From a virus: a stretch of 64,000 bases of DNA. Where the stretch lies: the IMG/VR virus record IMGVR_UViG_3300025131_000017, positions 17,556-81,555 of that record. One strand, written 5' to 3'. Shown piece after piece: positions 11,496 through 11,741 of the stretch (position 1 is the first letter of the stretch; each line of letters starts with the position of its first letter). Both the position numbers and the translations under genes were made by a program. Below the pieces are notes generated by a model. The model had not been told where the DNA came from. It was given only the letters and a program-made list of their open reading frames with translations, and made no database searches.

Positions 11496-11741
11496 AAAAA
11501 AGAAACCAGCTATGTTCACTACTAAGATTATTATTAGTGACTTTCATAACTGGTCTCTAGTGTGGAATGTTTTAAGAAGGTGCAATGCATCGTAAATCAT
11601 TCCTTCCTTTGCTTCCTTGTATCTCTTTCCCTGCGCTGAGAAGAGATGGTTCCACTACAGCAAAAGCAGTTTAATGACATAATGTATTAAGAGAAGCTTT
11701 CTCATCTTCAATCCCATACTATTACTTAGGTCAGTTCCATA
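11496..11741 (-). ncRNA. putative structured non-coding RNA (about 245 nt) with 5' pseudoknot
   Basis: own consensus promoter, ends in a long hairpin plus T run, only ORFs of about 20 aa or less seen, multiple stems. Confidence 0.6.

What the first reader, a model, noticed from the sequence alone, without database searches (positions are those of the whole stretch)
11496..11741. Stand-alone ORF-less transcription unit: structured RNA with a 5' pseudoknot
Seen (minus strand): a perfect TTGACA-N17-TATAAT promoter (11775-11747), then about 245 nt in which the ORFs I found are 4, 20 and 18 codons. It ends in a long hairpin (GAGACCAGTTATG/CATAGCTGGTTTC enclosing TCACTA/TAGTGA) plus T run. The 5' part folds as UGAC(11733-30)/GUCA(11678-75) with AAGUA(11727-23) pairing to UGCUU(11668-64) across a UUAAAC linker, an H-type pseudoknot, with a hairpin inserted. 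The middle has GUGGAA/UUCCAC enclosing AUCUCUU/AAGAGAU and GAAGG/CCUUC. The UGAC-CU-RAGYA...GUCA-UUAAAC-UGCUY shape looks like a pattern I recall from other phage genomes but cannot name. Inference: an abundant early phage sRNA, for example a decoy or antitoxin mimic (type III antitoxins are pseudoknots) or an anti-defence RNA.
Basis: partly seen in the sequence, partly recalled or inferred. Interest (0 to 1): 0.75.

Follow-up and report, generated by a model that had tools for sequence, protein, structure and literature searches.

The report
Phage small RNA capped by pseudoknot
An uncultured marine phage makes, from its own promoter and terminator, a roughly 245-base non-coding RNA whose front end is a small knotted fold that recurs in hundreds of phages and resembles a plant-virus RNA that stops RNA-degrading enzymes; it is probably built to be long-lived, but its job is unknown.

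Summary
On the minus strand a 12-of-12 sigma-70 promoter (11775-11747), about 245 nt with no conserved ORF, and a strong terminator (11557-11496) form a self-contained unit. No Rfam family matches. Four homologous cassettes turned up in marine metagenome and virome contigs (L084, L086, L087, L011; three lineages with the window). All have a promoter, terminator and the same 5' H-type pseudoknot. Compensatory changes occur in both pseudoknot stems and in P2. Window and L084 differ mostly at unpaired positions (43 of 53 differences).

The pseudoknot is not private to this RNA. It is an insert-bearing copy of a compact 25-27-nt motif found in at least 120 viral and 90 bacterial contig stretches, against 0 for a control pattern. 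An unconstrained base pair covaries strongly. This scan has noted the motif before on other DNA (224 notes) as "coremin-like". It shares the hairpin and the UUAAACU spacer of the plant-virus coremin exonuclease-stalling RNA, but not its loop.

Here it sits within 3-14 nt of the predicted transcript start in 5 of 5 homologues, which is unusual for the motif. Best reading: an early, stable, non-coding phage RNA with a 5' roadblock cap. The function of its body is unknown, and the antitoxin-mimic idea is unsupported.

The parts
11807..11818 (.). Palindrome ACGATATATCGT between the upstream terminator and the promoter; a likely regulator site shared by the early cassettes
   Evidence: The core CTACGATATATC lies 22-34 nt upstream of the -35 hexamer in 5 of 5 homologous cassettes. 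Earlier notes e1-6115084 and e1-6115075 list six copies in the window.
11747..11775 (-). Sigma-70-type promoter TTGACA-N17-TATAAT
   Evidence: 12 of 12 matches. Conserved in the homologues: N17 in L084, TTGAAA-N17-TATAAT in L011, TTGACA-N19-TATAAT in L086 and L087.
11496..11740 (-). Predicted transcript of about 245 nt. The start is inferred at about 7 nt after the -10 hexamer and the end at the U run.
   Evidence: Inference from the promoter and terminator. A 189-nt contig of RNA-library run X16 is identical over 11541-11726.
11730..11732 (-). Pseudoknot stem S1, 5' strand GAC (the flanking U11733 can pair with A11675)
   Evidence: Pairs with GUC 11678-11676. L011 has GUC/GAC, so the middle pair is flipped. 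In the viral scan with free W/W, 18 of 24 distinct sequences were complementary.
11723..11727 (-). Pseudoknot stem S2, 5' strand AAGUA (preceded by loop 1, CU, at 11729-11728)
   Evidence: Pairs with UGCUU 11668-11664. The pair is A-U in the window and L084 and G-C in L086, L087 and L011. The X18 variant turns U-G into U-A.
11679..11722 (-). 44-nt hairpin inserted in the pseudoknot loop, between the S2 5' strand and the S1 3' strand
   Evidence: Variable insert: 51 nt in L084, 14 nt in L086 and L087, 31 nt in L011, each able to form a hairpin. Three base-closing pairs change on both sides.
11676..11678 (-). S1, 3' strand GUC
11664..11675 (-). Loop 3, AUUAAAC (11675-11669), and S2 3' strand UGCUU (11668-11664)
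   Evidence: UAAACUGCU is invariant in the window, L084, L086 and L087; L011 has AAAACUGCU. It matches the conserved coremin spacer positions U13-U19 as numbered in PMC6546385.
11609..11663 (-). Helix P2 (UUGCU 11663-11659 with AGCAA 11613-11609), starting directly after S2, the place of coremin hp2. It encloses hairpin P3 (11647-11621).
   Evidence: P2 pair U-A becomes C-G in L086 and L087. P3 has a different sequence but is a hairpin in the window and in L086; the L084 and L087 P3 hairpins are my reading of the sequences, not their minimum-energy folds.
11574..11608 (-). Helix P4, AGGAAGG 11608-11602 with CCUUCUU 11580-11574, with a variable apical part
   Evidence: 7 pairs formed in 4 of 4 sequences, with G-U becoming G-C at one pair. 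The variable apex runs from 12 to 61 nt. In the X18 variant, 7 substitutions and 2 indels fall at 11585-11598.
11496..11557 (-). Intrinsic terminator: 13-bp outer stem plus inner stem, then U6
   Evidence: (-22.1 kcal/mol). L086 and L087 have an unrelated terminator sequence at the same place. In L011 the P4-like helix plus U run is the terminator.

Best explanation
This is a stand-alone gene for a non-coding RNA of about 245 nt. Host RNA polymerase transcribes it from a consensus early-type promoter and an intrinsic terminator ends it.

About 8 nt from its predicted 5' end the RNA folds into an H-type pseudoknot:
- S1: GAC/GUC
- loop 1: CU
- S2: AAGUA/UGCUU
- loop 3: AUUAAAC
- a 44-nt hairpin inserted in the loop

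Helix P2 follows directly, then helix P4, and the terminator hairpin closes the 3' end.

The pseudoknot is a copy of a widespread phage and bacterial motif that shares the hairpin and spacer of the plant-virus coremin (xrRNA-C) element. I infer that here it works as a 5' roadblock. A compact knot at the 5' end would hinder 5'-end-dependent decay, either RNase J-type 5'-3' exonuclease or 5'-end sensing and scanning by RNase E. The RNA would then be protected at both ends and accumulate early in infection.

Shown: the unit is conserved, structured and ORF-less, and the knot covaries.
Inferred: the transcript ends, early timing and the roadblock role.
Unknown: what the conserved body does (the P2, P3 and P4 region and the GGAAGCRAAGGAAGGAA tract). 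My guess is that it binds or titrates a protein.
For: Unit anatomy.

Known families and ORFs:
- No Rfam family matches. There were 0 hits at gathering score over 64 kb, and the best E-value was 0.64 over 501 nt.
- No ORF is conserved. Starts, frames and lengths differ among the 5 homologues and none has an SD.

Homologues:
- L084 is 81.7% identical over 273 nt, while its flanks are 91.2% identical over 3713 nt.
- L011 scored 22.6 bits with model R1, E 0.0079 in 731,517 bases.
- All 5 have a promoter 10-20 nt upstream of S1 and their own terminator.

Covariation within the family:
- On A4, 95 of 95 cells are paired and 5 of 24 pairs changed on both sides. Slid controls were 36-57% paired. RNAalifold finds the same helices.
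- Window against L084: 43 of 53 differences are unpaired, though 128 of 257 positions are paired. S1, S2, P2, P4 and the terminator are unchanged.
- X18 variant contig: its two helix substitutions each turn G-U into a Watson-Crick pair, and the rest cluster in the P4 apex.

RNA libraries: X16 holds a 189-nt contig identical over 11541-11726. X18 holds contigs over 11549-11699 and 11675-11822.

The motif at large:
The complement control pattern gave 0.
- The free base after UGCU pairs with R. Genomes: A with U in 16 of 20; G with C or U in 69 of 69. Viral contigs: 22 of 26 and 86 of 87.

Coremin comparison: hp1 of 3 bp, the essential A16-A20 spacer and the requirement for hp2 are taken from PMC6546385 (results section, part 1 of 2) and from passages of PMC10321173.
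Against: - No strand-specific reads, transcript ends or levels are available. RNA-library contigs may come from contaminating DNA, and X18 contig 11675-11822 runs across the promoter.
- There are only three independent lineages of the full RNA. S1 varies only by one flip.
- No bacterial or phage copy of the motif has been tested for nuclease resistance.
- The loop (CU-AAGUA plus insert) does not fit the coremin YGAD or YGNNAD consensus.
- Most compact copies are not at transcript 5' ends. Only 4 of 201 lie just behind a promoter-like site, the same rate as control windows at 11 of 574. Many lie within 12 nt after a stop codon: 28 of 89 and 43 of 113. The motif's usual job may therefore differ from a 5' cap.
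- The motif also occurs in Acinetobacter, which by my recollection lacks RNase J.
- The body's function is a guess.
Confidence: 0.5

Rival explanations
1. The pseudoknot is a recognition handle for a protein, from the host or the phage, that normally acts on the many intergenic copies of the motif in translation termination, recoding or RNA processing. This ORF-less RNA would present one copy to that factor as a decoy, guide or substrate, rather than being a passive nuclease block.
For: - The motif's loop and spacer letters (CU, RAGUA, AAAC) are conserved far beyond what pairing needs.
- Many copies lie within 12 nt after stop codons (28 of 89; 43 of 113), many of them at 6-9 nt. By my recollection this spacing is typical of recoding pseudoknots.
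- Coremin itself stalls ribosomes and promotes frameshifting (PMC10520033 abstract; PMC10321173 passages).
Against: No candidate protein is known. The coremin relatives work without any protein, according to the Xrn1-only in vitro assays in PMC6546385. Nothing in this window links the RNA to a partner.
Confidence: 0.15
2. Cis-acting leader. The knot is a small ligand- or protein-sensing aptamer and the terminator is conditional, so the unit attenuates transcription into the downstream small genes.
For: - Compact H-type knots with an A-rich third loop are typical riboswitch aptamers (preQ1-I, SAM-II/V; recalled).
- The downstream genes lie on the same strand.
- In other phages the motif lies in 5' UTRs, within 30 nt before a start in 20 of 89 and 27 of 113 copies.
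Against: - A separate promoter-like site follows the terminator in the window, L084, L086 and L087.
- The gene content downstream differs among the homologues: zero, one or two extra genes.
- I saw no alternative antiterminator pairing.
- Tandem arrays and post-stop-codon copies do not suit a ligand sensor.
- No riboswitch family matched.
Confidence: 0.1
3. Anti-defence RNA of the type III antitoxin kind: a pseudoknot that neutralises a ToxN-, AbiQ- or CptN-like host endoribonuclease.
For: - Type III antitoxins are small pseudoknots (recalled).
- Related phage contigs carry tandem arrays of the motif, for example 7 copies in L103 1308-1730.
Against: - There is a single copy in the window and in the whole 81.5-kb genome.
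- There is no repeat array here.
- No toxin-like family appears among the neighbouring genes.
- The motif is conserved across very different hosts and also lies in bacterial chromosomes after ordinary genes.
Confidence: 0.06
4. mRNA for a tiny peptide. The candidates are the 20-aa MGLKMRKLLLIHYVIKLLLL and the 27-aa MSLNCFCCSG... ORFs.
For: - The 20-codon ORF is kept in frame in L084 (22 codons) despite indels.
- One reading frame through the conserved GUCAUUAAACUGCU gives similar residues in all homologues.
Against: - No SD lies before any start, whereas neighbouring genes have AAGGAG.
- The 20-codon ORF is absent from L086, L087 and L011.
- Starts are ATG, TTG or none, and lengths run from 15 to over 74 codons.
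- The shared residues follow from the conserved RNA letters.
- The X18 variant has an insertion inside the ATG at 11600-11598, the start of one of the two 18-codon ORFs.
Confidence: 0.04
5. Replication primer or R-loop transcript: a promoter-driven, purine-rich RNA that marks an origin.
For: - The conserved polypurine tract GGAAGCRAAGGAAGGAA.
- The unit lies near the switch of strand bias at about 8-10 kb.
Against: - The skew switch coincides with the switch of gene orientation.
- A strong terminator and covarying RNA helices point to a discrete folded RNA.
- The purine tract is paired in P2 and P4.
Confidence: 0.03

Closest known systems
Coremin motif (xrRNA-C) of beny-, cucumo- and other eukaryotic RNA viruses, and its Watson-Crick variant xrRNA-WCC (Dilweg, Gultyaev, Olsthoorn: PMC6546385, PMC10520033, PMC10321173)
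   Same: - A 3-bp first hairpin. The commonest phage form uses the same G-C and U-A pairs that the paper numbers G2-C11 and U3-A10.
- A spacer reading UUAAACU, as in positions U13-U19.
- A second helix directly after it.
- In the WCC form, a canonical loop-to-spacer stem that gives an H-type knot.
- Coremin stalls a 5'-3' exonuclease with no protein help.
   Different: - The phage loop is CU-RAGUA-N (8 nt), and here it also carries a 44-nt hairpin. Coremin has YGAD or YGNNAD.
- S2 has 5 pairs and starts at U19, instead of 3 pairs at positions 18-20.
- The hosts are DNA phages and bacteria, which lack Xrn1.
- hp2 is absent from many compact phage copies.
- Nuclease resistance is untested.
preQ1-I riboswitch aptamer (Rfam RF00522) and other small H-type riboswitch knots
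   Same: A compact H-type pseudoknot of about 30 nt with a short loop 1 and an A-rich loop 3 (recalled).
   Different: - No match even at E up to 10.
- It is not a leader of a gene here.
- It occurs in tandem arrays and after stop codons elsewhere.
Type III toxin-antitoxin RNA antitoxins (ToxI, CptI, TenpI)
   Same: Small pseudoknotted RNAs. Tandem arrays of the motif exist in some phage contigs.
   Different: A single copy here, no adjacent endoribonuclease gene, and a different sequence.
Flavivirus subgenomic sfRNA and bacterial 5' stabilisers (ompA 5' hairpin, phage SP82 and ermC stabilisers, cryIIIA STAB-SD; recalled, not read)
   Same: The idea of a structure at the 5' end that blocks 5'-end-dependent decay and lets a non-coding or messenger RNA accumulate.
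   Different: sfRNA is carved from a longer RNA by the nuclease, whereas this RNA would be a primary transcript. The known bacterial stabilisers are plain hairpins or ribosome-binding sites, not a conserved knot.

Membership tests
Coremin / xrRNA-C | 5' hairpin hp1 of at least 3 base pairs whose pairing, not sequence, matters | tested here: met
   GAC/GUC is formed in 4 of 4 sequences, with GUC/GAC in L011.
Coremin / xrRNA-C | hp1 loop fits YGAD (4 nt) or YGNNAD (6 nt) | tested here: not met
   The loop is CU + AAGUA + a 44-nt hairpin. Compact phage copies have the 8-nt loop CURAGUAN. The consensus comes from the abstracts seen.
Coremin / xrRNA-C | Conserved 10-nt spacer with A16-A20 essential | tested here: inconclusive
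   The window spacer AUUAAACUGCUU matches U13-U19. It has G where the paper has A20, and it is longer.
Coremin / xrRNA-C | Second hairpin hp2 of at least 4 bp directly after the spacer | tested here: met
   P2 (5 bp, one covarying pair) starts at the base after S2 in the window, L084, L086 and L087. An 11-bp helix follows S2 in L011.
Coremin / xrRNA-C | Stalls a 5'-3' exoribonuclease in vitro | not testable with these tools
   Needs an enzyme assay.
xrRNA-WCC | Canonical antiparallel stem between the hp1 loop and spacer nucleotides 18-20 | tested here: inconclusive
   A canonical loop-to-spacer stem exists and covaries. It is 5 bp long and is shifted to positions 19-23 (compare).
Type III antitoxin RNA | Tandem direct repeats upstream of a ToxN-, AbiQ- or CptN-type toxin gene | tested here: not met
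   One copy in the 81.5-kb genome. The neighbouring proteins match GP88, DUF7417, a methylase and DUF932 only. The PADLOC library was not searched.
Any Rfam 15 family | Covariance-model score at or above the gathering threshold | tested here: not met
   0 matches in the window. The best sub-threshold matches were noise. In 8 loci carrying the motif only a tRNA matched.
Widespread phage 'coremin-like' pseudoknot (uncatalogued; noted earlier by this scan) | G(A/U)C-CU-RAGUA-(insert)-G(U/A)C-N1-3-AAAC-UGCUY, with S1 and S2 able to pair | tested here: met
   The window copy fits, with the longest insert but one among the family (44 nt).

The most novel reading that the evidence does not exclude
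The knot is a true prokaryotic counterpart of eukaryotic-virus xrRNAs, and this early RNA is a phage analogue of flavivirus sfRNA. It would be a deliberately indigestible non-coding RNA that accumulates and jams or titrates the host's 5'-end-dependent RNA decay machinery (RNase J, or RNase E with RppH), reshaping host and phage mRNA stability during take-over.
Probability: 0.1. Interest if true: 0.85.

Novelty: new variant of a known kind. Interest (0 to 1): 0.6.

Why it matters
Structures that mechanically stop exonucleases are known from eukaryotic RNA viruses. In the papers I could search, none is described for DNA phages or bacteria (listings; passages).

A small knot sharing the coremin hairpin and spacer occurs in hundreds of phage and bacterial contigs. 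This points to an unrecognised and very common layer of RNA-level control.

This particular RNA is a clean test bed. The knot sits at the very 5' end of a short primary transcript with no ORF before or after it. Any effect on RNA half-life can therefore be separated from translation. It also shows that the motif can serve in a setting with no upstream stop codon.

If the knot does protect RNA in bacteria, it would also be a compact tool for stabilising engineered RNAs.

Tried and rejected
Searches that found nothing:
- GenBank phage records: no DNA match to the unit. The tail protein and DNA polymerase have only relatives below 30% identity, so no cultured relative or host could be named. No tRNA genes were found.
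- IMG/VR patterns built on the window's own letters: 0 hits for two patterns.
- A single-protein search with GP88 found no relative.
- The two phages sharing the DUF932 gene (L002, L003) lack both GP88 and the RNA.
- blastn and nhmmer of the RNA against L002-L083 found nothing.
- Model R1 found, beyond the training set, only L011, and weak knot-driven hits in L100 and L114. The full-length family therefore stands at 5 sequences.

Ideas tested and dropped:
- CsrA-type sponge. GGA counts of 5-7 give z scores of only 1.1-2.3 against shuffles, and the window unit lies at the 81st percentile of the genome's own 245-nt windows.
- Antisense regulator of the phage's own genes. There was no antisense match longer than 14 nt, and the longest ones lie in the U-run region.
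- The knot as a usual 5' cap of primary transcripts. Only 4 of 201 compact copies lie behind a promoter-like site, the same rate as controls.

Method problems:
- A general structure descriptor was too noisy to use: 67 hits against 25-39 in shuffles. An earlier version was faulty.

Limits of the read data:
- In read laying the RNA-library runs showed no cover on most of 9800-12800 outside the pieces listed.

Limits of the literature check:
The 8,495 candidate viral RNAs of PMC10690425 (passages) may include this motif or this RNA, and I could not check.
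Full report
**What is there.** The window is bases 17556-81555 of an 81,555-base IMG/VR virus record that CheckV rates complete. It is a marine phage with no close cultured relative: its tail protein and DNA polymerase have only relatives below 30% identity.

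On the minus strand, the parts run in this order:
- the terminator of a GP88-family gene (PF17338), at 11876-11843;
- the palindrome ACGATATATCGT (11818-11807);
- a perfect TTGACA-N17-TATAAT promoter (11775-11747). It is one of two 12/12 sites in 8 kb;
- about 245 nt of transcript;
- a two-tier terminator hairpin (11557-11502, -22.1 kcal/mol) and a U6 run (11501-11496).

A further promoter-like site and the AAGGAG-led next gene follow. Its ORF list missed two 27-codon ORFs and a second 18-codon ORF.

**Not a known RNA, not a gene for a peptide.** Rfam 15 gives nothing at gathering score in the whole window, and only noise (best E 0.64) in 11400-11900. None of the short ORFs has a Shine-Dalgarno site. 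Across the five homologues their starts (ATG, TTG or none), frames and lengths (15 to over 74 codons) differ. The similar residues in one frame follow from the conserved RNA letters.

**Homologues.**
- Direct DNA searches failed.
- An alignment of the closest three proteins (A2) found 10 metagenome loci. Three of them carry the cassette directly after GP88: L084, L086 and L087.
- In L084 the RNA is 81.7% identical over 273 nt, while its flanks are 91.2% identical over 3713 nt.
- A covariance model of these four (R1) then picked out L011 3598-3764 among 731,517 bases of 93 sources (22.6 bits, E 0.0079). L011 sits one gene downstream of a 48%-identical GP88 gene.
- All five have the CTACGATATATC core 22-34 nt before the -35 hexamer, a promoter, the knot beginning 10-20 nt after the -10 hexamer, and a terminator. 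Promoter spacers are N17 in three and N19 in L086 and L087. The terminator has an unrelated sequence in L086 and L087, and in L011 the P4-like helix serves as terminator.
- Downstream gene content differs. The conserved thing is therefore the RNA cassette itself.

**Structure.**
- On alignment A4 the helices S1 (GAC/GUC), S2 (RAGUA/UGCUY), the base of the inserted hairpin, P2 and P4 are paired in 95 of 95 cells. Five of 24 pairs changed on both sides. Sliding the partners gives 36-57% paired and at most one such pair. RNAalifold predicts the same nested helices.
- L011 adds a flip of the middle S1 pair, GUC/GAC.
- P3 has unrelated sequences in the two main lineages. It folds as a hairpin in the window and in L086.
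- Between the window and L084, 43 of 53 differences fall at unpaired positions although half the positions (128 of 257) are paired. S1, S2, P2, P4 and the terminator are untouched. Of 10 changes in helices, 6 keep the pair. The P3 part of that alignment is out of register because of a 10-nt insert.
- A variant contig in run X18 differs at 9 listed positions plus 2 indels. Seven substitutions and both indels lie in the apex of P4. The other two (11639, 11667) each change a G-U into a Watson-Crick pair, in P3 and S2.

**The knot is a widespread motif.**
- A scan of IMG/VR for the knot's conserved letters, with a free 12-42-nt insert and free W in both S1 strands, gave 27 loci. S1 was complementary in 21 of 27, and in 18 of 24 distinct sequences (one-sided binomial p 0.011). 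Several of the rest look like chance hits inside genes.
- These loci showed compact copies without the insert, often in tandem. L103 has 7 copies in 1308-1730, one of them with S1 UUC/GAA.
- The compact pattern (S1 GUC/GAC, 0-2 nt in place of the insert) occurs in 90 stretches of bacterial and archaeal genome contigs. Most are Firmicutes and Saccharibacteria or other Patescibacteria; Acinetobacter, Bacteroidota and Desulfobacterota also appear. My rough expectation for equal base frequencies is about 5.
The complement-only control pattern gave 0.
- The base after UGCU was not part of the pattern, yet it pairs with the R of RAGUA. Genome contigs: A with U in 16 of 20; G with C in 52 and U in 17 of 69. 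Viral contigs: A with U in 22 of 26; G with C in 79 and U in 7 of 87 (Fisher p 4e-17).
- Copies are intergenic and strand-specific. They lie within 12 nt after a same-strand stop codon in 28 of 89 and 43 of 113 cases, and within 30 nt before a start in 20 of 89 and 27 of 113. They lie inside an ORF of 50 or more codons in 6 of 89 and 14 of 113.
- No Rfam family covers them.
- The scan's notebook shows the same motif was noted before on other DNA: 224 notes in at least 182 genomes, under the label "coremin-like". The full-length RNA was not.

**Comparison with coremin.** I read the abstract and part 1 of 2 of the results section of PMC6546385, the abstract of PMC10520033 and passages of PMC10321173.
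- Coremin is a 3-bp hairpin with a YGAD (or YGNNAD) loop, a conserved 10-nt spacer in which A16-A20 are essential, and a second hairpin of at least 4 bp. It stalls Xrn1 with no protein.
- A Watson-Crick variant forms a canonical loop-to-spacer stem.
- The phage motif has the same first-hairpin pairs and the same UUAAACU spacer letters. Here a helix (P2) follows directly.
- It differs in three ways. Its loop is different and longer. Its S2 has 5 pairs and is shifted by one base. Many compact copies lack a following hairpin.
- So it resembles coremin and may work like it, but it fails one defining feature and cannot be filed as a member.
- In the listings and passages I saw, no paper describes such an element in phages.

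**What is special here.** Compact copies are almost never just behind a promoter-like site: 4 of 201, against 11 of 574 control windows. In this RNA family the knot begins 10-20 nt after the -10 hexamer in 5 of 5 members. That places it some 3-14 nt from the likely start, with no ORF before it. A role that needs an upstream stop codon cannot apply here. A role in RNA stability or as a protein handle can.

**Expression.** The DNA is held, at half of its sampled words or more, by 11 runs. Leaving out 4 possible-source rows, that is 7 runs of 5 marine or seawater studies from 2017-2024. RNA-library run X16 has a 189-nt contig identical over 11541-11726. The oligo-dT RNA run X18 has contigs over 11549-11699 (the variant) and 11675-11822. 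The latter crosses the promoter, so it reflects DNA or read-through. Contigs show neither strand, ends nor level, so this is a hint only.

**Mechanism and odds.**
- I put about 0.8 on "a discrete, non-coding, structured early RNA".
- I put about 0.5 on the full best reading, which adds that the knot acts as a 5' roadblock against 5'-end-dependent decay, so that the RNA, closed at its 3' end by the terminator hairpin, is long-lived.
- The body has conserved letters beyond pairing needs: CUGCUYUYGCURUAG and GGAAGCRAAGGAAGGAA, and CACCUUCYU, which looks like an SD/anti-SD duplex in P4. Its role is unknown.
- CsrA-sponge and antisense ideas found no support.
- Rivals, in order: protein handle or decoy, conditional leader, type III-like anti-defence RNA, peptide mRNA, origin transcript.

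Noticed in passing
window 11807-11818; also L084, L086, L087, L011 upstream of their promoters: The palindrome core CTACGATATATC lies 22-34 nt upstream of the -35 hexamer in all five homologous cassettes. Earlier notes list six copies at early-cassette junctions of this window. It looks like an operator for a common regulator of the early promoters.
   Followed up: partly
window 9999-10246, minus strand: A second promoter-to-terminator unit without a credible ORF (only ATG-GTC-TGA after an RBS-like site). It has no coremin-like knot at its 5' end. L084 aligns across this region at about 91% identity.
   Followed up: partly
L103 1308-1730 (+): Seven copies of the compact knot lie in one intergenic leader and just after a 33-codon gene. 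One has a fully different S1 (UUC/GAA), and two have a mismatch in S2. A repeated promoter-like box (GCCCAAGAGCAAATT) flanks them.
   Followed up: partly
L011 1939-1964 (+): A second, compact copy of the knot lies in the same contig as the distant RNA homologue. Its S2 is GAGCA/UGCUC, so the U-G pair is replaced by C-G.
   Followed up: no
window 11740-11726; L087 4902-4919: The predicted transcript start coincides with an AUG that opens a 4-codon mini-ORF (AUG GAA CUG ACC UAA) ending at the URA inside the knot. L087 has a 5-codon one ending at the same place (UGA). The URA of the motif is always a stop triplet. Frames differ in L086 and L011, so this may be chance.
   Followed up: partly
loci L126-L210 (genome contigs): Many copies in Saccharibacteria and other Patescibacteria chromosomal contigs lie exactly 6-9 nt after the stop codon of an ordinary-looking gene. 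This spacing is reminiscent of recoding pseudoknots.
   Followed up: no
window 12082-12096 versus 11604-11618: A 15-nt identical, same-sense repeat of the RNA's purine tract (AAGGAAGCAAAGGAA) lies inside the GP88 gene (E 0.016). GGAAGG-rich runs also end the GP88 gene of L084 and sit in a terminator of L011.
   Followed up: no
L107 5514-5548 (-): A knot-like hit whose two S1 strands are not complementary (GAC...GAC). It is followed by CUGCUUCUGCUGUAGG, much like the window's CUGCUUUUGCUGUAGUGG. It may be a decayed or divergent relative.
   Followed up: no
window 11193-11410: RNA-library run X19 holds a 222-nt variant contig (16 differences, a 3-nt deletion) over the two small genes downstream of the unit.
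   Followed up: no
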